Virus record (IMG/VR): IMGVR_UViG_2529292908_000005 | Length of the DNA: 14,191 nucleotides | Reading direction: 5' to 3' (one strand) | Source: a virus | Taxonomy: Duplodnaviria > Heunggongvirae > Uroviricota > Caudoviricetes | Part shown: positions 1,664 to 13,688 of the stretch, one piece after another | Numbering within the stretch: position 1 is the first letter of the stretch | Layout of the letters: every line of letters begins with the position of its first letter | Position numbers and translations under genes: made by a program | Notes under the pieces: generated by a model | The model's database searches: none | What the model was told of the DNA's origin: nothing | The model's input: the letters and a program-made list of their open reading frames with translations, nothing else

Positions 1664-2236
1664 TCACGGTACTTTTGGTGACGGAGCTGGTGAGGCAGGA
1701 AAATAACGATAAAGGGTGGAAAGGCCAATATCAAATATCAGTGCGATTTGTTTACGGGACTCGCCATTAGCCAGCAAACGGGCGATTTGCTCCCGCTCTT
1801 TCTCTGTCAGTTTCTGAGGTCTGCCGCCATGACGCCCCTGAGCACGGGCAGCAGCAAGACCCGCACGTGTACGTTCAATAATGAGTTCCCGCTCCATTTC
1901 CGCCAGCGCGCCCATTATATGGAAAAAGACACGTCCCATGGGAGTGGATGTATCAATATTGTCCGTAATGCTGCGGAAGTTAACGCCGCGTTGCCGGAGT
2001 TCTTCTGTTAAAAGGACAAGGTGCTGCATACTGCGTCCAAGGCGATCCAGTTTCCAGACCAGCAGGGTATCCCCTGGCCGGAGTCGCTTTAATGCGCGTT
2101 TAAGTCCGGGACGCTCCCTTGTCTTACCGCTTATTCTGTCTTCGAAAAACAGCTCACATCCTGCACATTCCAGCGCATTTCTTTGTAGCGCCGTATTCTG
2201 GTCATTTGTTGACACCCTGATATACCCAATCAGCAT
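1664..2236 (-). CDS. gin: Serine-recombinase DNA invertase (Gin/Pin/Hin/Cin family)
   Basis: 190-aa ORF starting MLIGYIRVSTNDQNT, with catalytic-domain pattern and C-terminal HTH ...LSTLYRYFPAS closely resembling Mu Gin as recalled; AAGGAA SD 5 nt upstream of ATG; start lies 66 bp from the left gix-like site. Confidence 0.95.
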   Translation of the reverse strand: MLIGYIRVSTNDQNTALQRNALECAGCELFFEDRISGKTRERPGLKRALKRLRPGDTLLVWKLDRLGRSMQHLVLLTEELRQRGVNFRSITDNIDTSTPMGRVFFHIMGALAEMERELIIERTRAGLAAARAQGRHGGRPQKLTEKEREQIARLLANGESRKQIALIFDIGLSTLYRYFPASPAPSPKVP

Positions 2237-2301
2237 ACGATTTCCTTATTATAAAAAGCCGGAATTGTCGCATGAGGAATAAAACAGAGTTAATCCTGGC
2301 T

Positions 2302-2327
2302 TTCCTGAAAACCTCGGTTTACGGGAA
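2302..2327. other. gix/hix-like 26-bp invertase crossover site (left)
   Basis: TTCCTGAAAACC|TCGGTTTACGGGAA: two inverted half-sites around a central dinucleotide; right half nearly identical to the Mu gix half-site TCGGTTTACAGGAA as recalled. Confidence 0.8.
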
Positions 2328-2687
2328 ACGGTAAACAGGGCGGCGAATGCTCTGCCATCGGACGGCACCGCCGTTGCCGCGAATAGACTCGCCACCCCAA
2401 GAAATATTAATGGGGTTCCCTTTGACGGGACGCAGGACATAAACATCACTTCTGGTATAACACAGCAGGATGCGGATTCCCGATATATCCAGGATATCAG
2501 GCTGGGAGCAGAGAACAGGCAGGTAATGTACGGTGGGGCATATTACTCTGCGTACGGTAATGTTATGGCAGGCCTGCAGATTGACAGTAAAGTTGATGCT
2601 TCAAAACGATTTTATAGCATTCAGACCCCTGCAAAAATTAGTCGGAGGTACATGGATTACGGTATCTCAGTTATAAATAGTCAGTAA
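2313..2687 (+). CDS. Silent alternative tail-fibre C-terminal cassette (Sv'-like); no start codon of its own
   Basis: Frame open from the left crossover site to TAA 2685-2687, encoding [48 protein letters not shown]...YMDYGISVINSQ. The first ~25 residues repeat the peptide encoded across the right site in the expressed fibre gene, so inversion would fuse this cassette to the constant fibre region. Confidence 0.7.
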   Translation, partial: LGLRETVNRAANALPSDGTAVAANRLATPRNINGVPFDGTQDINITSGITQQDADSRYIQDIRLGAENRQVMYGGAYYSAYGNVMAGLQIDSKVDASKRFYSIQTPAKISRRYMDYGISVINSQ

Positions 2688-2765
2688 ATAATATATTTTA
2701 AAACAGATTTATTTCCAGGAGGATTTTATGGAACTAAAAATATAACCCGTTATTATCCTGAAAAT

Positions 2766-3248
2766 ATGCCATATGGTAATAATGTTCAGTATTTCCAGAG
2801 TGAAGATGGTAAGGATTTCTACGAATCCCTGTCATTATTCACCAAAAAATATAAACTTTGCATAACACCTGACAGCGGCGTTATCTGCTCAATATCACAG
2901 GACGCCTCGGCGCTGTATCCTGCGGGGTTTTCTGTGGTTGAGGTCGATGAACTCCCTGAAGGCACGGATATTTCAGGAAACTGGAAGTTTGATAATGGCA
3001 TAATCTCCCGTATTCCGGTTAACTACGCAAGAAAACTGGAAGCAATGCGCCAGTCATATCTTAATCAGGCATATGAAAAAATTAATGACTGGAGAACGGA
3101 GCTACAACTGGGCACCATCAGCGATGAAGACAGAGCAGCACTTACCCAATGGATGGCATACATCAGTCAGGTGAAGAAAATGGAACTACCCGCCATTAAA
3201 ACAGAAGCTGAATTTAACGCCATTAAATGGCCTGAGCAGCCACAGTAA
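2766..3248 (+). CDS. tfa: Tail-fibre assembly protein (Tfa / Mu U-like chaperone)
   Basis: 160-aa ORF ...YFQSEDGKDFYE...ALYPAGFSVVEVDELPEG...GNWKFDNGIISR...KWPEQPQ, the characteristic Tfa pattern. ATG 2766 has no SD; a stronger start (AGGAGG + ATG 2728) lies upstream in another frame (see findings). Confidence 0.85.
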   Translation: MPYGNNVQYFQSEDGKDFYESLSLFTKKYKLCITPDSGVICSISQDASALYPAGFSVVEVDELPEGTDISGNWKFDNGIISRIPVNYARKLEAMRQSYLNQAYEKINDWRTELQLGTISDEDRAALTQWMAYISQVKKMELPAIKTEAEFNAIKWPEQPQ

Positions 3249-3251
3249 TAA

Positions 3252-3271
3252 AGAAGGCCGGAAGGCCTTCT
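3252..3271. terminator. Hairpin between convergent tfa and fibre genes (probable bidirectional terminator)
   Basis: AGAAGGCC-GGAA-GGCCTTCT: perfect 8-bp GC-rich stem with 4-nt loop, 3 nt after the tfa stop; T-rich run (TTATTACTG) on the minus-strand side. Confidence 0.5.
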
Positions 3272-3385
3272 GAATATCATTATATACTTGCAGCCGTCAC
3301 CCATGCTCCATTTAACAGATACTGCAACGGCCGGTAATACACGCCGCCGACGTTATCTGCCGTATTCTTACCGACATCCTGTACT

Positions 3386-4162
3386 TTAATTCCGGTAAGA
3401 ACATTGCCGCCCCCCCAGATTCAGATCCCAGCTTTCCCATGTTCCGGGCATATGTGCGGTCACCGACCCCAGTCTTATGGCGGTTACTGTTCCTGATGAG
3501 ATAGTGATATCCTGCGTCCCGTCAAAGGGAACACCATTAATTGTGTGGGCATTTGCCAGCCTGTTCGCGGCAACGGCGGTGCCGTCCGATGGCAGGGCAT
3601 TCGCCGCCCTGTTTACCGTTTCCCGTAAACCGACGTTATCGATAAAAGCCCCTTTATCCGGAATGTCTGCGCCGTTCTGCTCCCTGCGCAGGTAACGGTT
3701 ATCACCTTCGCTTTTGCTGTAAACATCCAGATTATTACGGGCGGTTCCCTTATTCTCCAGGTCGGCGAGATTCTGATCCTTCGCCAGGGCATTAACGTCA
3801 CCGGGACCAAGACTGTTTTTTGTGGCAAGCGTCCCCAGACCAAGATAACCACGGGCCAGACGCTGGGCCTCCGCACCGGCATCAGCAATTTCTTTCAGGT
3901 TATTTTTCCGGGAAAAGGCATTCGCAGCGATAATGGCTTTAATGGACAGCGTAAGCTGGTTTAACTGCGCCTTATCCGGCTGAATACTGGCTTCAGCCAG
4001 AATATTCAGCAGTTCGGCCTGGAGAATATTCAGCCAGTCCTGACCAATCCAGCTGATACCTTTTTGTCCGTCACCTTCGGTAAACCAGGTGGTGGTATTA
4101 CTCTGCGCCGGTGCCAGCGCAGGCATATTCGCCACGCCGGAATTATTATCAACATGAAACAT
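3386..4162 (-). CDS. Tail fibre protein (Mu S / P2 H-like): constant N-terminal part plus variable C-terminus inside the invertible segment; C-terminus probably truncated by a frameshift
   Basis: 258-aa ORF with ...[48 protein letters not shown]... crossing the right gix-like site; ATG overlaps the upstream gene stop (TAATG). A C7 tract at 3410-3416 is followed by a stop 8 codons later, while the -1 frame stays open to 3280. Confidence 0.85.
3620..3645. other. gix/hix-like 26-bp invertase crossover site (right, inverted)
   Basis: Reverse complement reads TTATCGATAACG|TCGGTTTACGGGAA; same TCGGTTTACGGGAA half-site as the left site and TTATC...AAC outer half as in Mu gix as recalled; lies inside the fibre coding sequence (encodes FIDNVGLRE). 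Confidence 0.8.
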
Positions 4163-4722
4163 TAAATAGTCTCCTCTTCATGGCTGTTTGCATACACGTA
4201 AATAAACGTCTGCCATGCAGGCTTATAACGGTTCAGAATACATTCCAGCGCACCGCCTTCATAAATACGCAGCGGCGTGAGAATATCATCCAGCACATTC
4301 ATATTCCGGTAGCCGGTTTCACTGTTAATCGTGACAATACTGACCCACTGCGAATCCGGTGAGGGCTGAATGTCAATCTGATAACCAAACTCCGCCGCAA
4401 ACCGGATATAAAATTCACGGTTCAGCGAGGGCTTCATCCGGTATTTATTTCCGGCATAACGCTGTCGCTCCGTGAGGGTGGCTCCGGCCATATCACACTC
4501 GGGAAGCCCGAGATAACGCTCCCAGTCTTCCAGCAGCAGGCGCGACGTGTCAGGGAAACGCTCGGCAAGCAGCTGTTTACCCGTCCAGGATACACGCGCT
4601 GTCGAATGACTGAGGCCCAGACATAATGATGCCAGTACGGATGACGGACGCTTGTCCCATGCCAGCCCGTCAGGCAGTAACTGCAACAGGGCGCGCTGAT
4701 GCGGGGTCAGGGTTACAGCCAT
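4162..4722 (-). CDS. Phage tail protein, DUF2313 / Mu gp48 / YmfQ-like
   Basis: 186-aa ORF in the conserved slot between baseplate J and tail fibre; start overlaps the J stop region and its stop overlaps the fibre start; composition and position match the gp48/YmfQ family as recalled. Confidence 0.75.
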
Positions 4723-5795
4723 GTGATTTCTCCTACCGTCAGCAGCTCACTGTCTCCCGCCTGAACTGACGTCAGCGGACTGCGCACTTCAAAATCCTCC
4801 AGATTTTTCACCCCTGCCACCGCCCGCCAGAAAGACGACGGCAGAACCAGACCGCCGGGCCGGGATTCGTTATACAACAGGTCGGTCAGCGCCTGTTTTA
4901 CGGCCGCCTGATTCTCCGGTGTTTTCGGGATGATCCTGATGCTGAAGGGCACCGGCTTATTGGTCAGTTTAAACACGGTCACCGTCGGCCCCAGAGGCTG
5001 TCCGACAGGCTGGCCGGTCGCCGGATCATCATGACTGCGGATATAATCCGCCACCCGCTGAACATCACCGTCACCGGGGAAAATATCCGGGTTATTATCC
5101 TGAACAAACGTTACCCCCACGCTGCCCGCCTGCGGCCATTCCGGGCGGCACCATGCCCGCGTCACGCCCGGCACTTCACGCGCCCAGCGTTCAAAATCAT
5201 ACTGCGTGCCGCCGGACGGTGGATTCTGCACCCGGAAAACCAGACGGGAAAGCAGCTCCGGCACGGTTTCCACATCCGCACCACCGGTGATCCCCGTTCC
5301 GGTCACCGTGGACGTCTGGTTGATCCCCGCCTGCGGTGTGATAAATGTCAGTTTTGTCCCTGCCGGGGCATTCCCCGCACGACCGGCACTTTCGGCTTCC
5401 ACACTGACATTCAGCGTACCGGCCTTACCGGTCAGGGAGGTGGTGATACGGTAAACCACGCCATCACTTCGCTGGAGAAGCACACCTTCCTTGATCCCCG
5501 CATCCGTGGTCAGCATCAGCTGAACCGGCCCGTCCCCCCGAGAGGCAGGCTTACGCATGACGCCCCAGAATGCACAGTGTTTCAGCAGTTCGGCTTCATC
5601 GGCTTCGGTCGGGATGATCTGACGCGCAATCCAGGCCAGATGCTCATGCTCCTGAGCAGATAACCCTGCCTGAGCGTAAGCAATGGCATTCAGGGTGGTT
5701 TCATTCACACCCGGCTGCGAGCCGGGCAGGCGCTGGCTGATATCCTGCTGTGTCTGCGTGATTAACTGTGCCAGCGGTAAAGGCTGATAAGGCAT
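4713..5795 (-). CDS. Baseplate J-like protein (Mu gp47 / P2 gpJ family)
   Basis: ORF-track frame 4713..5837 starts at TTG; a better start is ATG 5793-5795 (MPYQPLPLAQ...) with a GGG-containing SD. Translation shows the J-family layout (...ADEAELLKH.AFWGV.RK.A..A.G...GGADVE...) recalled from P2 J. Confidence 0.85.
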   Translation of the reverse strand: MPYQPLPLAQLITQTQQDISQRLPGSQPGVNETTLNAIAYAQAGLSAQEHEHLAWIARQIIPTEADEAELLKHCAFWGVMRKPASRGDGPVQLMLTTDAGIKEGVLLQRSDGVVYRITTSLTGKAGTLNVSVEAESAGRAGNAPAGTKLTFITPQAGINQTSTVTGTGITGGADVETVPELLSRLVFRVQNPPSGGTQYDFERWAREVPGVTRAWCRPEWPQAGSVGVTFVQDNNPDIFPGDGDVQRVADYIRSHDDPATGQPVGQPLGPTVTVFKLTNKPVPFSIRIIPKTPENQAAVKQALTDLLYNESRPGGLVLPSSFWRAVAGVKNLEDFEVRSPLTSVQAGDSELLTVGEITWL

Positions 5796-5954
5796 TAACC
5801 CTGTTCGATAAGGGGCTGATTTCCCGTGAGGAGGCAATACATATTATCAATCTCGCTCAAAAAAACTCTACCCCGGAAAATGCAGAAGATATCCAGGATG
5901 GCTCATATATTAATACCGACTGGCATTTCGACAATCTCCGGGCCTGTATGGGGA

Positions 5955-6242
5955 TTACCGCTGAAAAAGATTAAAAATTTTTGCATAATGTTCAGATGTA
6001 AGAATTGCTGAACCATCAACACCGAGCCTGCGGCGAACGTATTCCTCGCGGGCTATTTTATTATCCAGAGATACAGCATCCTTAATCAGGTTAATCTCCC
6101 GCTCCATTATCAAAAGGGCTTCTCTGGCTGCAAGATTTTCTTTTATCGCATATTCGATAATGTCCCGCATACGTTCAAGCATGCCGATTTTAGCCAGTTC
6201 TTCGTCGATAGATTTAGGCGCAAATTTGATTTCTTTTTCCAT
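5955..6242 (-). CDS. Hypothetical protein, predicted all-helical, encoded in AT-rich DNA
   Basis: ORF-track 5955..6257 (GTG start); preferred start ATG 6240-6242 (MEKEIKF...) with GAGGA SD 8 nt upstream, 1 nt after the stop of the upstream zinc-ribbon ORF; markedly lower GC than neighbours. Confidence 0.5.
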   Translation of the reverse strand: MEKEIKFAPKSIDEELAKIGMLERMRDIIEYAIKENLAAREALLIMEREINLIKDAVSLDNKIAREEYVRRRLGVDGSAILTSEHYAKIFNLFQR

Positions 6243-6243
6243 A

Positions 6244-6387
6244 TTATTCATCCTCACAATTTATACATGCAGTGTCGTCGCCCATATCGCAGTGGTTACA
6301 TTTTATCTCACCACAATGTGGGCACTCTTTCAGATACTCCGGGTCCTCATTTCCACAGGTGGGACATTCAACAATTTGCTCATCCAT
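6244..6387 (-). CDS. Small 4xCxxC zinc-ribbon protein (47 aa), not in the ORF track
   Basis: ATG 6385-6387 to TAA 6244-6246 translates MDEQIVECPTCGNEDPEYLKECPHCGEIKCNHCDMGDDTACINCEDE: four CxxC pairs in 47 residues; AGGGGA SD 7 nt upstream; start overlaps the stop of ORF 6380..6712 (ATGGATGA). Confidence 0.5.
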   Translation of the reverse strand: MDEQIVECPTCGNEDPEYLKECPHCGEIKCNHCDMGDDTACINCEDE

Positions 6388-6712
6388 TATGTATCCCCTG
6401 TAATTCCGGCAAGGCCGAAAGATGGCACCAGTGCGTCACCTGTCCGTCCTCATCTTCAAGGCAGGCTCCGGTTTCTTCATCAATAAAAAAGCCTTCATAC
6501 CCCATATGGCCGATGCGCAGTTCCTGTTGGTCACCATACTGAACAATCAGCACGACAGCCTCCATATCAGGCGGAAATGCGTCATCCAGTGAATGCCAGG
6601 GATAACCGCGCAAATCCCCGAAATAAACGCCGGTCAGCGTTCCGCCACAGAGCGGCATTCCGGCGGCACACACAAGAGGTTCATCTGATTCAACAAATAA
6701 GGTCGTTATCAT
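6380..6712 (-). CDS. Hypothetical protein (110 aa)
   Basis: ORF with ATGA start/stop overlap to the upstream gene at 6709-6712; acidic C-terminal half; no family recognised. Confidence 0.55.
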   Translation of the reverse strand: MITTLFVESDEPLVCAAGMPLCGGTLTGVYFGDLRGYPWHSLDDAFPPDMEAVVLIVQYGDQQELRIGHMGYEGFFIDEETGACLEDEDGQVTHWCHLSALPELQGIHNG

Positions 6713-7260
6713 GGCGTTAACTCCCGTAATACAGCGTCCTCGGCAGTCCGGCGACGGTAATAAACTGCGTGAGCAGAATGTTCAGATATTCCAAACTTTT
6801 CGCCAATTTCCCGGAATGACAGACGGCGTGGGTAATCGGAATCACGCAGCGCACGTATAAGACGTACATCATCATCAGATATGCGCGTGCCGGGGCGTAA
6901 CTCTCCGCACTTTGTTAATCCAGCACCAATCATTCCTGCCCGACATCTGACAGAATCTTTATTACGTCCGAGATATTCTCCCATTTGCTGGCAGGTCATT
7001 GTTCTGGCATTTTTTCGAATAAACTTATCTTCATCAGGTGTAAATCTTGGGTGTTTATATTTCAGTAACTCCGGGTATGAACTGCGCAATACACCAGTCC
7101 GGTTATATACAGCCCAGACAGTTCTTTTTATTCTGGCAGCAATATCCTTAACCGGGGTGGATGAATAAAGCGCAATCAGTAGCGCATCTTCTTCAGGTGT
7201 CCACGCGCGGACATGAGCGGGTGTACGACCTTTTCGCCCCATGGGTTGTAATTTCATCAT
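6709..7260 (-). CDS. Putative DNA-binding protein with tandem Myb/SANT-like HTH repeats
   Basis: 183 aa; repeats ...RAWTPEEDALLIALYS...IAARIKRTVWAVYNRTGVL and ...RFTPDEDKFIRKNARTMTCQQMGEYLGRNKDSVRCRA, plus a third weaker HTH-like segment; strong AGGGGGTGA SD; start 3 nt after the upstream stop. Confidence 0.6.
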   Translation of the reverse strand: MMKLQPMGRKGRTPAHVRAWTPEEDALLIALYSSTPVKDIAARIKRTVWAVYNRTGVLRSSYPELLKYKHPRFTPDEDKFIRKNARTMTCQQMGEYLGRNKDSVRCRAGMIGAGLTKCGELRPGTRISDDDVRLIRALRDSDYPRRLSFREIGEKFGISEHSAHAVYYRRRTAEDAVLRELTP

Positions 7261-7263
7261 GCA

Positions 7264-7779
7264 TCACCCCCTGACTCGCTTTTCAGCAGCATAAAACTCA
7301 TCAGACAGTATTTCGGTCATTTTCTGTTTTGCGGGTTTTACGCCGCACTGAAGGTAAATCACATCGTCAACGCAGAACCACTTCACAGGGCCAAACAGGA
7401 TTGCCGAGAAATCAATACCCAGCCAGAACAACAGCGCATCGGTTCTGGCATACGTGACGGGTGAATATTCACGCCACAGACTGTTCAGTTCATCAGAGGC
7501 AACACGCAGGGTTTTAGGGATACGTGATGTGCGCGGTGTGCAGCTCCAGCCATTCGACGCAGTCGGTTTTCGCCATAAGTCGCGATGAAAAGGATATTTG
7601 TCCTCCGTAAAACGCAGTCCCTTAAAGCAAAATCCACTGATACCGGATACAAATACCGACCGGCACGCAACATTCAGCACGGCCTCAAGGCGTTTTGCCT
7701 CATCCTTAACTTTCTGGCAGTCCTGCTGGTATTTTTGCCACGCAGCCAGCGCGGAAGGGTTTGATGTTTTAAAGAACAT
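7264..7779 (-). CDS. Hypothetical early-region protein (171 aa)
   Basis: ORF whose ATG shares a nucleotide with the upstream stop (TAATG at 7777-7781); no family recognised. Confidence 0.55.
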   Translation of the reverse strand: MFFKTSNPSALAAWQKYQQDCQKVKDEAKRLEAVLNVACRSVFVSGISGFCFKGLRFTEDKYPFHRDLWRKPTASNGWSCTPRTSRIPKTLRVASDELNSLWREYSPVTYARTDALLFWLGIDFSAILFGPVKWFCVDDVIYLQCGVKPAKQKMTEILSDEFYAAEKRVRG

Positions 7780-8312
7780 TACGCCACCTCCGCAGATATC
7801 CCGGCAGGCGCTGCTGTCCGGTCAACAATCAGGTAGCGCAGAACATGTTCAGTGATATTCCAGCCGCTTAAACCGCAGATAATGACGCCCAGGCGTATGT
7901 CGATATACGCCATCACAAACTGGGGCACGCCTTCTTTCATGGCCTGCTCATCAACTTCAGCCACCACATAAACGGTTTCACAGGTCAGAACGCCCTGAGC
8001 AAATTCCCACGCCATCGACGGAATATCATGCCCCTCAATCCATGGCAGGGATTTTCTGAAGCCGCACCACTGAACATCATCAGCCGCAGATTCCTGGCTG
8101 CATTTGCGACGAACCGGCTGCACCGGGCGGGGGCGCGGAATATCATAAAAACCGTTACATTCCGTCAGCACGCCTGCATCAACCGCATCACGCAGAAAAT
8201 AAACCATGGAGGATGGCGGCATATTCATTTTTTCAGCCAGTACACCGCAGGTCAGGCGGCCATAAATACGCAGCCAGTTTTTAACCCCTTCAAGCACTTT
8301 TGCATCAATCAT
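7779..8312 (-). CDS. Hypothetical early-region protein (177 aa)
   Basis: ORF with GGGGAAA SD 7 nt upstream of ATG 8310-8312; first gene after the 145-bp AT-rich gap downstream of gam; no family recognised. Confidence 0.55.
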   Translation of the reverse strand: MIDAKVLEGVKNWLRIYGRLTCGVLAEKMNMPPSSMVYFLRDAVDAGVLTECNGFYDIPRPRPVQPVRRKCSQESAADDVQWCGFRKSLPWIEGHDIPSMAWEFAQGVLTCETVYVVAEVDEQAMKEGVPQFVMAYIDIRLGVIICGLSGWNITEHVLRYLIVDRTAAPAGISAEVA

Positions 8313-8457: not shown

Positions 8458-8988
8458 TTATTTATTCAGTCCGGCGTCCTGTTCAAAAGGCTCGACATAA
8501 AAACTTTCAGCGCCTTTATTCACCTTGATACCGGCAATGCCTTTCACAGCATCCGGCTCCGCCAGGACGGCTTCCTTGTTCACTTCCTCTTTCGTGCGGA
8601 TGAAACGCTCAAGCCCCATACGGCGCAGCATTTCAATCACACCTTCCACATCACGGCTGACGCTGCATGATGGCGTTCCCAGCCGCCATGACACCGTTCC
8701 GGTGGTCAGATTGGCTGTTTTGGTTTTGCCGCCGTTCGTCAGCTCATCACGGTTGGTTTTGCACCAGTCCTGAATCCCTTTAAAAAGCACTTTGATTTGC
8801 TTTTTAAGATTTTCAATCTGCGGCGTATAACGGGCGGTGATTTCTGCCACTTCGTCATTCATCGCCGTTTCCAGGCGCAGCGCCTCTCGCTGAATATCTC
8901 CCAGGGTGCGGATATCACGGCTGACTTCTTCCCGGGTCTGCGGTGCCGCCTCGGCTGCGGCCTTTAATTTTGTAACGCGTTTAGCCAT
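8458..8988 (-). CDS. gam: Gam-like host-nuclease inhibitor (Mu Gam family, DNA-end binding)
   Basis: 176-aa ORF MAK...DIRTLGDIQREALRLETAMNDEVAEI...DWCKTNRDELTNGGKTKTANLTTGTVSWR...ERFIRTKEEVNKEAVL...EPFEQDAG, co-linear with Mu Gam as recalled; AGGA SD. Confidence 0.9.
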   Translation of the reverse strand: MAKRVTKLKAAAEAAPQTREEVSRDIRTLGDIQREALRLETAMNDEVAEITARYTPQIENLKKQIKVLFKGIQDWCKTNRDELTNGGKTKTANLTTGTVSWRLGTPSCSVSRDVEGVIEMLRRMGLERFIRTKEEVNKEAVLAEPDAVKGIAGIKVNKGAESFYVEPFEQDAGLNK

Positions 8989-8999
8989 TTTGTTTTTCC

Positions 9000-9293
9000 T
9001 TATTGCAGTGTGCCTGATGCTTTATGCACGCGGTGGCGTTTAATGATGGCATCCGCTCCAAAAGACTGTGCAGATGCCTGAAATTCCGCTGAGAGAAACT
9101 GAATAATTGCAGGACTGTGATACTGGAGAATACTTGCATAAACGTCACAGAGTGACGTCGGCCTGTTATCCGTATCACGTTCTGTTTTTACATCCACACC
9201 AATCTTTTCATGCACTTCAACACTGTCATTGCCTGCCGGTTTTTCGTCATGCGAAACATGCTCAAATTCAAAAATAACGCGTACTTTGCTCAT
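9000..9293 (-). CDS. Hypothetical small early protein (paralogue 1 of a tandem pair)
   Basis: ORF-track 9000..9320; preferred start ATG 9291-9293 (MSKVRVIFEFEHV...) with GGGG SD, 4 nt after the upstream gene stop; N-terminus parallels the upstream gene (MSKVVRIIFEYKE...). Confidence 0.55.
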   Translation of the reverse strand: MSKVRVIFEFEHVSHDEKPAGNDSVEVHEKIGVDVKTERDTDNRPTSLCDVYASILQYHSPAIIQFLSAEFQASAQSFGADAIIKRHRVHKASGTLQ

Positions 9294-9297
9294 GGAA

Positions 9298-9570
9298 TTA
9301 CCCCTGCTGATTAAATTCATTACCGTTAATAACCCCGGAAGCCATGCCTCTGTCTTTCATGAATGCACTGGCTTTCATTGCCACAAACTCTGCGAAGTTT
9401 CTGCTTTCTGCCAGCATAACCACCCCAAAAATCATGGCGGGTCCATTATCTTTCTTCTTTATTCCGGTTGAACGTATATCCAGACTTACCCCTCTGTGCG
9501 TGCTGCCATCAGAGTTTTTGCAGATAACATCTTCCTTGTATTCGAAAATAATGCGTACGACTTTACTCAT
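9298..9570 (-). CDS. Hypothetical small early protein (paralogue 2 of a tandem pair)
   Basis: 90-aa ORF MSKVVRIIFEYKEDV...; 4-nt start/stop overlap with the upstream gene. Confidence 0.55.
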   Translation of the reverse strand: MSKVVRIIFEYKEDVICKNSDGSTHRGVSLDIRSTGIKKKDNGPAMIFGVVMLAESRNFAEFVAMKASAFMKDRGMASGVINGNEFNQQG

Positions 9571-9848
9571 CCTCTGGTCCTCGTTCTGTTTGGATAACTG
9601 ACCCGGCGTCTAACCTCACGGCAGAACCGAATCATGGCATTAAAGGCTTCTTCCTCCGTCACCGCTTCCGGTATCCCAGGAACCAGTAGCTGTTCCTGTT
9701 CATCGCGTCCATGACGCGCCATAACCTCAATCACATGCCGTACCGTGGCAGGCTTTCCGGCAACTATCGGCAATGCACCTTCCGGCAGGACGTAACCAAA
9801 CTCAATAAGACCACTCGACCACGCCCATGCAATGAGATTTCGTTTCAC
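9567..9848 (-). CDS. Hypothetical small early protein (93 aa)
   Basis: ORF packed between neighbours in the B-to-gam interval; no family recognised. Confidence 0.5.
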   Translation of the reverse strand: MKRNLIAWAWSSGLIEFGYVLPEGALPIVAGKPATVRHVIEVMARHGRDEQEQLLVPGIPEAVTEEEAFNAMIRFCREVRRRVSYPNRTRTRG

Positions 9849-9849
9849 C

Positions 9850-10116
9850 TCACACCTCCCAGTAAACCGTGCAGCCGCTGATGCGGGTGGCCTTCACACG
9901 GCGGCGCAGGCCGTTGGTCTGTATGGTGATTTCAATTTCACCGGTTCCCTGCACGTTGCCTACCGGCGGCGTGGTTTTCAGTGCAAAACGTTGCGGATAG
10001 CGCTTACTGCGTTCCAGTACCGCACCGGCAAGTTCGGTCAGACGGCGCGCGCTGTTCAGGGAGTCGAATAAATTCATTTTGTTACCGCAGGATTGCATAT
10101 TCATATAACACCTCAT
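9850..10116 (-). CDS. Hypothetical small early protein (start ambiguous: ATG at 10116, 10104, 10098 or 10077)
   Basis: ORF directly following the upstream stop (TAA ATG); several in-frame ATGs, GAGGTG SD-like element before 10104/10098; sits where kil-type genes lie in Mu, but no sequence recognition. Confidence 0.45.
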   Translation of the reverse strand: MRCYMNMQSCGNKMNLFDSLNSARRLTELAGAVLERSKRYPQRFALKTTPPVGNVQGTGEIEITIQTNGLRRRVKATRISGCTVYWEV

Positions 10117-10340: not shown

Positions 10341-11273
10341 TCACACCTGTGAGAGTAATTCAGGGTTGGTATAAACCTCTTTAAAGGCCGCATTAATATG
10401 TTTTTCTGTCAGCGCCGCGCCTTCACCGCTGGCGGTGAGCCACGCCTGGTTAAGCGTATGTGTCAGAACGCGTAACGCTCCCGGCTTTTCAGCGATAGCC
10501 TGCATGACGGCCAGCTCGGCCTCACCACTGATACCCCATGCCCTGGCAATGGCCAGCACATCCGCCTTTTTGGCCTTGCGAAGTTGTTTTGTACGGGCAA
10601 GACGGCTGAACAGGCGCGATAAATCATCAAAGGCGCGGCGTCCACCTTTAAACAATCCGCGCGGGTTACCAATAAGCACCATCCCGATCCCCGTGGCGTC
10701 CTGAATTGCCCGGAGTTGCTCCAGACCGTCAATACCAAGATGATCCGCCTCATCCACAATCACCAGTCCACGCGTTCCCGTCAGGCGACGGCGGATGGCG
10801 CGGGATAATGCCCCTTTGTTCGCGCGGGTGTAATCAATCCCCAGCGCATCGGCCAGCTCCAGCAGACACTCCGTGACGCTGGAGTGCGCGGGTGACAGGG
10901 TGATCATCCAGGTGTTTGGTTGCTCCTGGCAGTAATTACGGGCAGTGGCCGTTTTACCCACACCCGGTACGCCCACAATAACGTTAATACAGCCCATCAG
11001 GCGAACCGCCTGAAACAGTGCGCGCAGCTCCTGGACTGTCTGAGTTTCCACAAACTGCGGCGGTTCCGGCAGTGCGCTTTGTTTATTCCAGTTCTCATAC
11101 CAGGAGCGCAGGGAAGCAGCCACAGCGGCGTTATCGCCTTTATATTTCCCCTTGCGGAAAGCCGATAATGTGCCGTCGGAAATTCCCGCCTCTCTGGCGA
11201 TGGCATACTGCGTCAGCACGCCGCCATCAATAAGTTCATCAATGGTCTTGATTACATCGTTTATATCGGTCAT
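10341..11273 (-). CDS. B: MuB-like transposition target-capture protein (AAA+ ATPase)
   Basis: 310-aa ORF with Walker A VGVPGVGKTATARNY, ...LVIVDEADHLG..., N-terminal HTH-like region, and co-linearity with Mu B as recalled (...GDN..V...L..W...PEPP.FVETQTV...KPGALR.L...); GAGG SD; directly downstream of the transposase. Confidence 0.92.
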   Translation of the reverse strand: MTDINDVIKTIDELIDGGVLTQYAIAREAGISDGTLSAFRKGKYKGDNAAVAASLRSWYENWNKQSALPEPPQFVETQTVQELRALFQAVRLMGCINVIVGVPGVGKTATARNYCQEQPNTWMITLSPAHSSVTECLLELADALGIDYTRANKGALSRAIRRRLTGTRGLVIVDEADHLGIDGLEQLRAIQDATGIGMVLIGNPRGLFKGGRRAFDDLSRLFSRLARTKQLRKAKKADVLAIARAWGISGEAELAVMQAIAEKPGALRVLTHTLNQAWLTASGEGAALTEKHINAAFKEVYTNPELLSQV

Positions 11274-11312: not shown

Positions 11313-11348
11313 AATAACCTGAGTCGCCGCTCGGGTTATTTTTTATTT
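11313..11348 (+). terminator. Stem-loop plus T-tract in the A-B intergenic region; reads as an intrinsic terminator on the strand antisense to A/B
   Basis: AATAACCTGAG-TCGCCG-CTCGGGTTATT (11-bp stem with one G-U pair on the plus-strand RNA) followed by TTTTATTT; on the sense (minus) strand the stem has a C-A mismatch and a weaker U-tract. Confidence 0.35.
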
Positions 11349-13438
11349 CAGGCCAGAGGGTCATTTTCTTTTAATTTCGCTTCAAGCAGCTGCAATCCCC
11401 GCTGGAAATTACGCTCGTATTCTTCATCAGGTTCATCGTCAGCGACCGGTTGCTGAACGATCACCGTATTACCCACAGGGCGGTATATATTTTCCAGCCA
11501 CGGCTCCTGTGGCTTGTGCTCCAGCACGTTGACAATCTCATCCTCGGCATCACGGATTTTTTCCTCTGCGCGTTTACGCATGCCTTTAAGGCGCTGCTGC
11601 TGTTTGTGGTATTCCGCGCTGACCGGGAAGGCTTCGCGTTTATTGCCGTCCCATACCGCCTCGCAAATCACGCTGCCATCCGGGCGACGTACGGTAATTC
11701 GTTCGGCATCATGAATGTCATAGCTGATAAGCACCTTACGACCATGCTCGTCACGCAGCTCGGGCGCGTAGTAAATATTATTCAGCCAGCGTATTTCACA
11801 GCGTCTTACAGGGCGTTCCACCATCGGCCGGAACATATCCCGCAGCTCAACATCGGACAGCCATTCAATTTCCGTGTCCTCTTCCGCCAGGCGTTTTTTT
11901 CTGAACTCCGCCGGGCTGTAATGCTTGCCGTTCGGCTTCACCGGTAATTCATCGTGCGGCCGGTTGTTGTACCACTCAACACCATCACGAATGGCATCAA
12001 TCAGTTCAGCCCAGGACGGTAAATCACGCATCGCTGACTGCTGCCGGGCGTTCAGCCGTTTGCCCTGTTGCAGGGCAGTAAATGCCGAGCGTAAATCGCG
12101 GTTGGTTTTGCGTAACGTCTCGCGATCTGCACCTTTCCCGAAATAGGTGCGGTATTTACGGGCTATGCGCATCGGTAATGTGCGGTTAAGCCGTTCGATA
12201 ATGCCTCGTCCCTGCGGATTACCGGCAATCCCGGTCGGGTGATTAATCCCCAGTCGCGGCAGTATCCCCACAACCTCCTTATCCAGGATGTCGGCGGTTT
12301 CCCCGGAGCCGTTATCCGAGTAATACAGAAACGGTTTGCCGTGATGGCGAATGCCGTGCTGTATGGCACCGGCTACGGCGAAAACATTTTCAGCCAGGTC
12401 AAGGCTCCAGCCCACCACAAAGCGCGTGCCACCGTCGATAACAAAGGTCACTTCCGGTGCAAATGGCCGACCGTGAACCGGGTGTGCGCATTTCAGCTTC
12501 ATGCCGTGACCGTCACCAATCCAGACATAATTCACCGGCATTTTTGACCAGTCGCGGCGCGTGAATCCCTCAAGCTGGCGGTATTCACTGCCGGTCACCC
12601 GGCCTTTTTGTTTCACCACTTCCGGCAGTTTCTTCATTGCGCGGCGAATGGTGTCATAAGACGGCATGATATCGAGCATATAAGGCTCATCAGCGTGCCG
12701 GTGCTGCCATTCAGCAACAAAATCCTCGTAAGCCTCGGTCATTGGTCGGCCGTTTGACTGGCGATACTGCGCCAGAAATTCGGGCAGCCAGTTAATATCT
12801 TCGGCTTTTATTTCCTGGCGCTTACCCGGTGCCAGTAAAAGCAGGCGTTCAGCGGCGTTCTGCGCCTTGTTAAAGGCCGCAATCCAGCGTTTCAGCGTGA
12901 TTTCACTTAACGCGCGGCTGTTTCCCTTTTTGGCGTTCGCCGTCTCAACCATTGCCACAATGCGCTCGTCCAGCTGCGAACGTGCCAGGTTGTCAACGAT
13001 AAACCGGATAGCCTTCGCACAGCTGAAACCAGGTTGTTGCGCGACTTTCAGCACCTCGCTGACGATCGCGATTCGTGCATCAGCCACCTGGCGCTGGTTT
13101 TCAGTCAGGGCATTAAGGCGTTCAACCATCAGTTGTGGTGATCCGCGATATGCCTCCACCGCATCAACCACGGCAGGCGAGCGTCTGGCCTTTGTCACCA
13201 CTGGAGCCGGTGATTCATCGACTTTTTGAGTCATCAGTTGCAGGGCGTAGCGTTCACGTAATGCCTGCTGCGTCACTTCAGGTAAACAGTCGATGCTGTA
13301 TTCAGTTGCTTTAGAGCCTGAGCGACGACGGGAACAACAGCTTTTCCCTTGTACGTAACGTTGTAATGCCTGGCGAATACCTTTTGTTGTAGCAGGCATT
13401 CCGGGCGCGCCAATCAGTTCTTTTGCAATGACATACAT
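11348..13438 (-). CDS. A: Mu-type DDE transposase (MuA-like)
   Basis: 696-aa ORF of MuA size, immediately between ner-like and B-like genes; start 1 nt after the ner stop (TGATATG); internal ...YVWIGDGHGMKLKC... core region. Assignment rests mainly on size and conserved ner-A-B synteny. Confidence 0.9.
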   Translation of the reverse strand: MYVIAKELIGAPGMPATTKGIRQALQRYVQGKSCCSRRRSGSKATEYSIDCLPEVTQQALRERYALQLMTQKVDESPAPVVTKARRSPAVVDAVEAYRGSPQLMVERLNALTENQRQVADARIAIVSEVLKVAQQPGFSCAKAIRFIVDNLARSQLDERIVAMVETANAKKGNSRALSEITLKRWIAAFNKAQNAAERLLLLAPGKRQEIKAEDINWLPEFLAQYRQSNGRPMTEAYEDFVAEWQHRHADEPYMLDIMPSYDTIRRAMKKLPEVVKQKGRVTGSEYRQLEGFTRRDWSKMPVNYVWIGDGHGMKLKCAHPVHGRPFAPEVTFVIDGGTRFVVGWSLDLAENVFAVAGAIQHGIRHHGKPFLYYSDNGSGETADILDKEVVGILPRLGINHPTGIAGNPQGRGIIERLNRTLPMRIARKYRTYFGKGADRETLRKTNRDLRSAFTALQQGKRLNARQQSAMRDLPSWAELIDAIRDGVEWYNNRPHDELPVKPNGKHYSPAEFRKKRLAEEDTEIEWLSDVELRDMFRPMVERPVRRCEIRWLNNIYYAPELRDEHGRKVLISYDIHDAERITVRRPDGSVICEAVWDGNKREAFPVSAEYHKQQQRLKGMRKRAEEKIRDAEDEIVNVLEHKPQEPWLENIYRPVGNTVIVQQPVADDEPDEEYERNFQRGLQLLEAKLKENDPLA

Positions 13439-13439
13439 A

Positions 13440-13688
13440 TCATGACGCCTTTCTCATATAGCTCTTAACCTGGTATCGACTGGGCCAGATTTCTTCAGGC
13501 GATACCCCAAGAGCATCAGCAATTATTTGCTGATACGGTCGGCAAGGAGTACGTAATACGCTTTTCAGCGAATCCCTGCTGTAACCAGCCTTTAAAGATA
13601 AAGAGCGCAGTGATAAGCCAGCCATGTGTAAGCGCGCCTTGATGATTTCAGGCGGCCAATCGTGATCTGAAACTTCTCTTCTACTCAT
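13440..13688 (-). CDS. ner: Ner-like DNA-binding regulator (Ner/Nlp family)
   Basis: 82-aa ORF ...DWPPEIIKARL...GLSLRSLSLKAGYSRDSL...QQIIADALGVSPEEIWPSRY..., co-linear with Mu Ner / E. coli Nlp as recalled; first gene of the early operon, divergent from the repressor. Confidence 0.88.
   Translation of the reverse strand: MSRREVSDHDWPPEIIKARLHMAGLSLRSLSLKAGYSRDSLKSVLRTPCRPYQQIIADALGVSPEEIWPSRYQVKSYMRKAS

What the first reader, a model, noticed from the sequence alone, without database searches (positions are those of the whole stretch)
6244..6387. Unlisted 47-aa 4xCxxC zinc-ribbon gene translationally coupled inside the post-gam operon
It falls below the ORF-track length cut-off but has a good SD, a start overlapping the upstream stop (ATGGATGA), and a stop 1 nt before the next gene's ATG. 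The CxxC pairs at residues 8/11, 22/25, 30/33 and 41/44 are very unlikely by chance. Small zinc ribbons in phage early regions often bind polymerase or other host proteins.
Basis: seen in the sequence. Interest (0 to 1): 0.55.

Follow-up and report, generated by a model that had tools for sequence, protein, structure and literature searches.

The report
Phage Mu gp13 two-zinc mini-protein
The 47-codon reading frame is a real gene under purifying selection, the counterpart of phage Mu's catalogued but never studied gp13 (E14): a very acidic eight-cysteine, probably two-zinc mini-protein carried by many phages and other mobile elements, function still unknown.

Summary
All four CxxC pairs, the ATGGATGA start/stop overlap, an AGGGGA Shine-Dalgarno and the TAA-N-ATG junction to the next gene are present. 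It is not a new gene. It is the ortholog of phage Mu gp13 (formerly E14; UniProt GP13_BPMU; PHROG 5584; 88% identical over the 41-aa core). The exact 47-aa protein is already in NCBI/UniRef as "Mu prophage protein". RefSeq/PGAP left it unannotated in 3 of 3 genomes checked. Coding is firm: against Mu, pS is 0.70 and pN 0.06. A profile search found more than 80 sequence clusters sharing C-x2-C-G-x(8-28)-C-P-x-C-x3-K-C-x2-C-D-M-G-D-D-[VT]-x-C-x2-C plus an acidic tail. No Pfam or NCBIfam family, solved structure or paper covers it. An AlphaFold model (pLDDT 81) and a PDB profile search point weakly to FYVE/RIM-like two-zinc fingers, but FYVE signature motifs are absent. The module is strongly acidic (net charge -12) and nearly always C-terminal behind unrelated N-terminal domains. 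It sits in varied accessory positions in Mu-like phages, a lambdoid-type prophage and an ICE-like element. Best inference, at moderate-to-low confidence: a zinc-stabilised protein-binding module acting on a conserved host factor.

The parts
6244..6387 (-). gp13-like gene (47 codons plus TAA), ortholog of phage Mu gp13/E14
   Evidence: ORF listing. 88% identity to the Mu gp13 core by tblastn, with the Mu sequence. PHROG 5584 at E 3e-26. pS 0.70 and pN 0.06 against Mu in this frame.
6256..6366 (-). Eight-Cys core module (residues 8-44): CxxC-x10-CxxC-x4-CxxC-x7-CxxC, including the conserved K-C-x2-C-D-M-G-D-D loop
   Evidence: All eight Cys are invariant. Spacers 2 and 3 are fixed at 4 and 7 residues and loop 1 varies from 9 to 29. 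Conservation: K 98%, D 98%, M 83%, G 99%, D 82%, D 84%.
6394..6399 (-). Shine-Dalgarno AGGGGA, 6 nt upstream of the ATG, lying inside the upstream gene's last codons
   Evidence: Read from the sequence. Mu's curated record annotates an RBS at the equivalent place.
6380..6387 (-). ATGGATGA start/stop overlap: gp13 ATG at 6387-6385, upstream gene TGA at 6382-6380
   Evidence: Sequence and ORF coordinates.
6240..6255 (-). Junction to the next gene. GAGGA (6255-6251), formed by the codons of the acidic tail, serves as SD. It is followed by TAA (6246-6244), one base, then the ATG (6242-6240) of the gp14 homolog
   Evidence: Sequence. Mu has the same 1-nt spacing and an RBS inside gp13's 3' end.
6380..6712 (-). 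Upstream 110-aa gene (PHROG 6925; weak DUF551-like), absent from Mu at this position
5955..6242 (-). Downstream 95-aa gene, homolog of Mu gp14 (PHROG 6075)

Best explanation
The ORF encodes the ortholog of phage Mu gp13 (E14), here reduced to the bare conserved module. It is translated from the Mu-type early transcript by coupling to the gene upstream, and its own last codons supply the ribosome-binding site of the gp14 homolog. These points are shown or follow directly from the sequence. The protein is a 41-residue core with eight invariant cysteines. The inference is that these hold two zinc ions in a compact fold: a beta-hairpin around the second CxxC and a short C-terminal helix starting at the fourth, most like FYVE/RIM-type cross-brace fingers. 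The fold would display an invariant acidic loop (C-D-M-G-D-D) and an acidic C-terminal tail. Because the protein is strongly acidic, works as a C-terminal add-on to unrelated domains, and moves between accessory slots of different mobile elements, the most likely mechanism is that it binds a conserved proteobacterial host protein. That partner may be a nucleic-acid-binding protein, which an acidic surface could occupy. Binding would modulate or block the partner when the element is expressed (host take-over or counter-defence). It is less likely to bind DNA or RNA itself. Identity and coding status are near certain (about 0.95). The two-zinc fold is likely (about 0.7). The protein-binding host-factor mechanism is an inference, and the 0.4 below refers to it.
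Confidence: 0.4

Rival explanations
1. It is an accessory factor of Mu-type transposition or replication, for example one of the genetically mapped but unassigned semi-essential early functions such as arm. It would act on MuA/MuB or on host replication proteins.
For: [quoted passage not shown] In enterobacterial Mu-likes it keeps a fixed place after gam-gp11-gp12. In an ICE-like element it is separated from DnaB only by a 38-aa ORF.
Against: The module also occurs in phages with no detectable Mu transposase, in a repressor/integrase prophage, and inside head-gene clusters between portal and Mu F. A core transposition cofactor would be expected to travel with MuA/MuB. gp12 can be replaced or deleted next to it.
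Confidence: 0.15
2. It is a nucleic-acid-binding zinc-finger regulator of transcription or translation, in the manner of Mu Com or P2 Ogr, controlling the nearby gemA/mor middle-gene switch.
For: Small C4 zinc fingers in phages are often regulators (established knowledge, not tested here). The gene usually sits just upstream of gemA-mor. One fusion group has a weak ProQ-C-like domain. Sub-threshold hits go to ribosomal and RadA zinc ribbons.
Against: Net charge is -12 with only two Lys and no Arg, pI is about 4, and the tail is acidic, all unfavourable for binding nucleic acid. The gene's position is not fixed relative to gemA/mor, and it occurs in elements lacking them.
Confidence: 0.1
3. It is a virion-associated or ejected small protein, or a head-assembly accessory factor.
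For: In at least four module clades of mainly betaproteobacterial Mu-like prophages the gene lies between the Mu-type portal gene and Mu F. In L092 it starts 3 nt after the portal stop.
Against: In Mu, in the window and in most other loci it lies in early or accessory operons far from structural genes. Head-gene clusters of Mu-like phages are known to tolerate accessory insertions (general knowledge, not tested here).
Confidence: 0.05
4. It is not an independent protein but the C-terminal domain of the upstream gene product, joined by frameshifting or read-through.
For: A natural in-frame fusion exists (PHROG 6418, 231 aa) in which another early protein runs into the gp13 module. In Mu, gp12 and gp13 overlap by 14 nt.
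Against: The window ORF has its own ATG and SD. The upstream partner differs between phages: gp12, gp11 or the 110-aa gene. Stand-alone versions of 45-65 aa dominate the family. No slippery sequence was noticed at the ATGGATGA junction.
Confidence: 0.03
5. It is a chance ORF, and the real gene is one of the longer plus-strand ORFs overlapping it (6160-6486 at 108 aa, or 6267-6542 at 91 aa).
For: Those plus-strand ORFs are longer and would pass a length cut-off. One antisense frame also shows pS above pN.
Against: That antisense frame shares third-codon positions with the true frame, which accounts for its signal. The minus-strand frame has the highest pS/pN. The peptide matches a family with invariant Cys across more than 80 clusters, whereas the plus-strand ORFs run against an operon that is otherwise entirely on the minus strand.
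Confidence: 0.01

Closest known systems
Phage Mu gp13 (formerly E14; Mup13, NP_050617; UniProt GP13_BPMU); PHROG 5584
   Same: Same 41-residue core (88% identity) with all eight Cys. Same place in the early operon ahead of gp14. Same 1-nt stop-to-start spacing to gp14, with gp14's RBS inside the 3' end.
   Different: Mu gp13 has a 19-residue N-terminal leader (MENNKTSYSWLGKFTTVKQ) and overlaps gp12. The window version has only six residues before the core and follows two extra genes (a 183-aa SANT/Myb-like gene and a 110-aa gene) that Mu lacks. Neither protein has a known function.
FYVE and FYVE-like (RIM/rabphilin-type) two-zinc cross-brace fingers of eukaryotes
   Different: No R(R/K)HHCR, WxxD or RVC motifs. 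The knuckle 3-4 loop is 7 residues rather than about 16 or more. The protein is acidic rather than basic. No Pfam FYVE hit appears among matches at E<=1. The hosts are bacterial mobile elements. It is a structural analogue at most, not a member.
Classical zinc ribbons (Pfam Zn_Ribbon_1, DZR, Zn_ribbon_LapB; ribosomal L32/L37; RadA N-terminus)
   Same: The CPxCG-type knuckles 1 and 2, separated by a variable loop, resemble a rubredoxin-like ribbon.
   Different: All these hits fall below the gathering thresholds and cover only knuckles 1-2. The conserved K-C-x2-C-D-M-G-D-D-x2-C-x2-C half has no counterpart in them.
Lar/Ral-type restriction-alleviation proteins and other small acidic phage inhibitors (Ocr, ArdA): functional analogy only, from general knowledge
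   Same: A small protein in an early or accessory region of a prophage. Lar-family proteins also carry a Cys4 zinc-ribbon motif, and Ocr and ArdA are strongly acidic protein-binding DNA mimics.
   Different: The match to Pfam Lar_restr_allev is not significant (E 0.43, 11.3 bits against a 28.6 cut-off). No restriction-alleviation assay exists for gp13. The protein is far smaller than Ocr or ArdA.

Membership tests
Mu gp13/E14 family (PHROG 5584) | Significant match to the family profile over the core | tested here: met
   phrog_5584 E 3.1e-26, residues 7-47 aligned to profile positions 20-60 of 60. 88% identity to the Mu gp13 core.
Mu gp13/E14 family (PHROG 5584) | Eight Cys as CxxC-x(9+)-CxxC-x4-CxxC-x7-CxxC with the K-C-x2-C-D-M-G-D-D signature | tested here: met
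   The window protein has spacing 10/4/7 and KCNHCDMGDD. The Cys are invariant across the family.
Mu gp13/E14 family (PHROG 5584) | Position in the Mu-type early operon after gam/gp11/gp12 and directly before the gp14 homolog | tested here: met
   Window order is gam, gp11, gp12, 183-aa gene, 110-aa gene, gp13, gp14. The same order is seen in relatives. gemA and mor are missing from the window itself because of a deletion junction at about 5796.
Mu gp13/E14 family (PHROG 5584) | Zinc binding by the Cys pairs | not testable with these tools
   Inferred only from the invariant Cys and the predicted fold.
FYVE zinc finger (Pfam PF01363) | Four CxxC pairs with FYVE-like spacing and a cross-brace fold | tested here: inconclusive
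FYVE zinc finger (Pfam PF01363) | Basic R(R/K)HHCR motif at knuckle 2, plus the WxxD and RVC motifs (the PI3P-binding signature, from established knowledge) | tested here: not met
   The window has YLKECPHCG at knuckle 2, no WxxD, and TACINC at knuckle 4. No FYVE model appears among Pfam hits at E<=1.
Classical zinc ribbon / double zinc ribbon (Pfam PF13240, PF12773, PF18073) | Score above the Pfam gathering threshold | tested here: not met
   Best are Zn_ribbon_LapB at 16.8 bits against 25.7, DZR at 14.9 against 27.3, and Zn_Ribbon_1 at 13.0 against 25.
Lar restriction-alleviation family (Pfam PF14354) | Score above the Pfam gathering threshold | tested here: not met
   11.3 bits against 28.6, E 0.43.
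NCBIfam named families | Any curated NCBIfam model matching | tested here: not met
   0 families at E<=0.1. PGAP leaves the ORF unannotated in 3 of 3 RefSeq genomes checked.

The most novel reading that the evidence does not exclude
The gp13 module defines an undescribed, Pfam-less family of FYVE-like two-zinc acidic mini-proteins. It spreads as a cassette among transposable phages, lambdoid-type prophages and ICE-like elements of Gamma- and Betaproteobacteria. In this reading it acts as a portable inhibitor or decoy for a conserved host DNA-binding protein, for example a defence or repair factor. That would make it a new anti-defence or host-take-over family, and a bacterial-virus example of a cross-brace finger otherwise associated with eukaryotes.
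Probability: 0.2. Interest if true: 0.65.

Novelty: already known. Interest (0 to 1): 0.33.

Why it matters
The gene itself is not a discovery. It is Mu gp13, catalogued for decades, and the exact protein is already in public databases. Three things are still useful. First, RefSeq annotation omitted this short variant in all three genomes checked. Second, the gene belongs to a well-conserved eight-cysteine family that has no Pfam or NCBIfam model, no solved structure and no literature. The family is found in more than 80 sequence clusters and in several kinds of mobile element. Third, its size, acidity, modular use and shifting accessory positions make it a cheap, well-defined candidate for a host-factor-binding or counter-defence protein in the best-studied transposable phage. 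Genetics for such a test already exist in Mu.

Tried and rejected
1. Pfam, NCBIfam and a PDB sequence search with the single protein gave only sub-threshold zinc-ribbon hits.
2. AlphaFold with the shallow 11-sequence alignment gave pLDDT 58, which is unusable. It was redone with 57 sequences.
3. Foldseek against PDB and BFVD found nothing at E<=0.001. The afdb50 library was unavailable.
4. I suspected that the 231-aa PHROG 6418 family was a gp12-gp13 fusion. It is not: its N-terminal part is a different protein with PHROG 2510-like similarity. The 316-aa P0019 is not gp12-like either.
5. Six literature searches, including identifiers and the CDMGDD motif string, found nothing on gp13. The gp13 mentioned in PMC12407980 and PMC12236752 belongs to other phages.
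6. The Pfam scan of the fusion partners gave only a borderline Phage_ProQ_C_like hit for one group and nothing else informative.
7. My first codon-test script failed because of an off-by-one error in the regular expression. It was corrected.
8. The 15-billion-protein collection places the 47-aa protein in a cluster whose representative is the neighbouring 110-aa protein. I treated this as a clustering artefact and did not use it.
9. PADLOC was not searched, because it models defence systems rather than anti-defence genes.

Full report
**1. What is in the sequence**

The finding's coordinates are right, but the gene reads on the minus strand, from 6387 down to 6244. It encodes MDEQIVECPTCGNEDPEYLKECPHCGEIKCNHCDMGDDTACINCEDE, with cysteines at 8/11, 22/25, 30/33 and 41/44.

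On the minus strand the context reads ...AGGGGATACATAATGGATGAGC...:
- The AGGGGA Shine-Dalgarno is at 6399-6394, 6 nt before the ATG at 6387-6385.
- The upstream 110-aa gene ends with TGA at 6382-6380, inside ATGGATGA.
- At the 3' end the sequence is TGT GAG GAT GAA TAA T ATG. The stop (6246-6244) is one base from the ATG (6242-6240) of the next gene.
- The GAGGA formed by the last acidic codons is placed 8 nt before that ATG, so it serves as the next gene's SD.

There are no minus-strand promoter-like or terminator-like sites between 5600 and 7400.

The Cys pattern is not a chance product. It is the only one of 180 six-frame segments of at least 40 aa in the window with three or more CxxC within 47 residues. 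Only 4 of 200,000 nucleotide shuffles of the 144 nt reached three.

**2. Identity**

The window is the early region of a Mu-like prophage of E. coli, read on the minus strand. Its genes, in order:

| Gene | Window coordinates |
|---|---|
| ner-like HTH | 13440-13688 |
| MuA | 11348-13438 |
| MuB | 10341-11273 |
| four small genes | 9000-10116 |
| Gam | 8458-8988 (Pfam E 5.5e-42) |
| gp11 | 7779-8312 |
| gp12 | 7264-7779 |
| 183-aa SANT/Myb-like gene | 6709-7260 |
| 110-aa gene | 6380-6712 |
| this ORF | 6244-6387 |
| gp14 homolog | 5955-6242 |

A sensitive blastn search hit phage Mu itself across the ORF. Mu's annotation there is gp13, "previously called E14", a 60-aa protein whose stop is one base before gp14. 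Its sequence is MENNKTSYSWLGKFTTVKQECPTCGNESPEYLKECPHCGGLKCNHCDMGDDTACMNCEGE. It is 88% identical to the window protein over the 41-residue core, and all eight Cys are kept.

PHROGs places the window protein in phrog_5584 (E 3e-26, unknown function). Mu's curated GenBank record marks an RBS for gp13 and puts gp14's RBS inside gp13's 3' end, which is the same layout as here.

The exact 47-aa sequence is already in NCBI, ENA and UniRef, for example BCA72774.1, under names such as "Uncharacterised protein" and "Mu prophage protein". It is seen on at least 1000 contigs. Mu gp13 is UniProt GP13_BPMU, "Uncharacterized protein gp13". The gene is therefore not new.

It is nevertheless easy to miss. 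In three of three RefSeq/PGAP genomes that I inspected, the 137-nt slot between the 110-aa gene and the gp14 homolog carries no CDS, although the identical or near-identical ORF is there. All 14 complete E. coli genomes with this variant list only two features under the match.

**3. It is a coding gene under selection**

I compared the 41-codon core with Mu-type sequences. Proportional synonymous differences are 0.65-0.82 and non-synonymous differences 0.06-0.08. With more distant relatives pS approaches saturation while pN stays at 0.12-0.33.

Four of the other five frames show pN above pS. The fifth, an antisense frame that shares third-codon positions with the true frame, mimics the signal more weakly, as expected. 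The longer plus-strand ORFs that overlap the gene (108 and 91 aa) are therefore shadows.

**4. The family**

The word-indexed search found only ten close relatives. A profile of these, run against 1.84 billion cluster representatives, gave 121 hits at E<=1e-3. Of the 129 proteins retrieved in these searches, 80 carry the complete module under a strict pattern and 90 under a looser one.

The module is: C-x2-C-G-x(8-28)-C-P-x-C-x3-K-C-x2-C-D-M-G-D-D-[VT]-x-C-x2-C, followed by an acidic tail.

- The spacers after knuckles 2 and 3 are invariant at 4 and 7 residues. Only the first loop varies.
- Non-Cys conservation is concentrated in three places: the G after knuckle 1 (96%), the K before knuckle 3 (98%), and the D-M-G-D-D loop (98/83/99/82/84%).
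- The five residues after the last Cys are 54% acidic and 3% basic.
- The window protein has net charge -12 and pI about 4.05. Short family members average -7.8, and only 1 of 56 is non-negative.
- Members range from 45 to 316 aa. The module is almost always at the C-terminus, typically with only a few residues (median about 5) after the last Cys.

The N-terminal parts are unrelated to one another:
- a borderline Phage_ProQ_C-like domain in one group (26.6 bits against a 27-bit cut-off);
- a PHROG 2510-like region in the 231-aa PHROG 6418 fusion, found in E. coli Mu-likes in place of gp12;
- several regions with no family at all.

The window version, with six residues before the core, is essentially the bare module, which shows that the module is autonomous.

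No Pfam or NCBIfam model reaches threshold. No solved structure is related by sequence.

**5. Fold**

With the 57-sequence alignment, AlphaFold gives pLDDT 80.8. The model has strands at 19-21 and 28-30 flanking knuckle 2 and a helix at 42-46 beginning at knuckle 4.

- Foldseek finds nothing significant in PDB or BFVD. The weak top hits are FYVE, zf-HIT, PHD, RING and GATA fingers.
- Independently, the family profile's best PDB sequence hit is the EEA1 FYVE domain (E 0.003). It aligns CMACG...CRQCGNIFCAEC with C-x2-C-G...C-P-x-C-G-x2-K-C-x2-C.

Three weak lines of evidence thus converge on a FYVE/RIM-like two-zinc finger. However, the FYVE signature motifs (R(R/K)HHCR, WxxD, RVC, from established knowledge) are absent. 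The knuckle 3-4 loop is much shorter than in FYVE domains, and the protein is acidic rather than basic. It is therefore at most a structural analogue.

I could not inspect the model coordinates. The ligand pairing, cross-brace or two sequential fingers, is unresolved.

**6. Where the module lives**

The viral-contig collection yielded 70 loci, and the species-representative genomes yielded 17. All 17 are in Gamma- or Betaproteobacteria.

In enterobacterial Mu-likes the order is gam, gp11, gp12, (optional extras), gp13, gp14, gemA, mor. The left neighbour is interchangeable: gp12, gp11 directly, the 110-aa gene, or an in-frame fusion partner. An extra gene may also sit between gp13 and gp14.

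Clustering of neighbouring ORFs over 29 module clades found GemA downstream in 9 clades and Mor in 7. The position shifts in other Mu-like phages:
- after mor (L065, L091);
- beside gp27 (L075, L094);
- between the Mu-type portal and Mu F, in a long-loop, mainly betaproteobacterial subfamily (L069, L072/L092, L082, L096). In L092 the gene starts 3 nt after the portal stop.

Roughly half of the distinct loci show no Mu marker. Sampled examples:
- the early operon of an S24-repressor/integrase prophage, next to an Rv2179c-like exonuclease;
- an ICE-like element (ParA, DnaB, AcaB, TopoIII), where a 115-aa member lies between a D12 methylase and DnaB;
- a small-gene cluster with GmrSD_N and ParE/Phd.

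The module thus behaves as a mobile accessory cassette, not as a fixed part of one machine.

**7. Mechanism**

Shown: the gene is real, under purifying selection, laid out for translational coupling within the operon, and a member of a conserved eight-Cys family.

Inferred with fair confidence: two structural zinc sites hold a 41-residue fold.

Inferred with moderate-to-low confidence (about 0.4): the module binds a protein. The arguments are:
- its extreme acidity, with almost no basic residues, is unfavourable for nucleic-acid binding;
- it has an invariant exposed-looking acidic loop and an acidic tail;
- it is reused as a C-terminal appendage on unrelated domains, which is typical of interaction or targeting modules;
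- it moves among accessory slots of different mobile elements that share proteobacterial hosts, which points to a conserved host target.

A nucleic-acid-binding host protein is a natural candidate for such an acidic ligand. Counter-defence is one possibility (about 0.2). None of this is demonstrated.

The rivals are a transposition/replication accessory factor (0.15), a nucleic-acid-binding regulator (0.1), a virion-associated protein (0.05), a frameshift or fusion domain (0.03) and a chance ORF (0.01). They are set out with their tests in the structured fields.

**8. Literature**

[quoted passage not shown] Nothing mentions gp13/E14, its identifiers or its motif.

**9. Verdict**

But it is the known, uncharacterised Mu gp13, and the host-protein-binding idea remains a hypothesis.

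Novelty: already known as a gene and as a PHROG family. The family-level picture may not have been described, but it does not change the category. That picture is the absence of any Pfam model, the FYVE-like two-zinc fold, the acidic cassette shared by phages and ICE-like elements, and the omission from RefSeq annotation in the genomes checked.

Interest: 0.33.

Noticed in passing
window 5796-5797 (junction), with 4713-5837 and 5768-5974: The prophage is internally deleted or rearranged. Right of about 5796 the DNA matches the gp14/gp15-like region of intact Mu-like prophages. Left of it the DNA matches the GP46/baseplate-J boundary. gemA, mor, C, the lysis and head genes and most tail genes are therefore missing. 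None of 5,426 complete E. coli genomes has the two sides contiguous. It could be a defective prophage or an assembly join.
   Followed up: partly
window 6380-7260 (minus strand): Two genes absent from Mu sit between gp12 and gp13. One is a 183-aa SANT/Myb-like/HTH protein (PHROG 323, 'transcriptional regulator, D5-like', E 7e-53). The other is a 110-aa protein (PHROG 6925; weak DUF551-like).
   Followed up: partly
L004 3448-3584; L101 and L102 642-778: RefSeq/PGAP annotation leaves the gp13 slot empty in 3 of 3 genomes inspected, although the ORF is present there. All 14 complete E. coli genomes carrying this variant list only the two flanking features. Some GenBank submitters do annotate it.
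   Followed up: yes
L019 5368-6126: A natural in-frame fusion (PHROG 6418, 231 aa). An unrelated early protein (PHROG 2510-like) replaces gp12 and runs directly into the gp13 leader and module.
   Followed up: partly
L025 5403-6123; L001 3444-3457: The gene boundary ...VNNGKQ*/MENN... is the same whether gp12 (in Mu) or gp11 (in L025) precedes gp13. This suggests a conserved inter-gene junction used for module exchange among Mu-like phages.
   Followed up: no
L092 3710-9267; also L069, L072, L082, L096: A long-loop subfamily (first loop 18-28 residues, signature KCCMCDMGDDVEC), mainly in betaproteobacterial Mu-like prophages, lies between the Mu-type portal gene and Mu F, inside the head-gene cluster.
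   Followed up: partly
window 1664-3386: A Gin-like serine recombinase (1664-2236, Resolvase E 3e-51) sits next to oppositely oriented tail-fibre and tail-fibre-assembly genes (2766-3248 on the plus strand is Caudo_TAP; 3386-4162 is on the minus strand). This looks like a Mu G-segment-type invertible host-range region.
   Followed up: no
window 6160-6486 (+) and 6267-6542 (+): Antisense ORFs of 108 and 91 aa overlap gp13 and are longer than the real gene, so a length-based ORF track would list them and not gp13. Codon statistics favour the minus-strand frame.
   Followed up: yes
protein collection, cluster of P0130: The 90%-identity cluster that holds the 47-aa protein has the neighbouring 110-aa protein as its representative. 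This looks like a clustering artefact.
   Followed up: no
L099 2699-5373: In an ICE-like element (ParA, DnaB, DUF2857, AcaB, TopoIII) a 115-aa member of the family lies between a D12 adenine methyltransferase and DnaB. The module is therefore not confined to phages.
   Followed up: no
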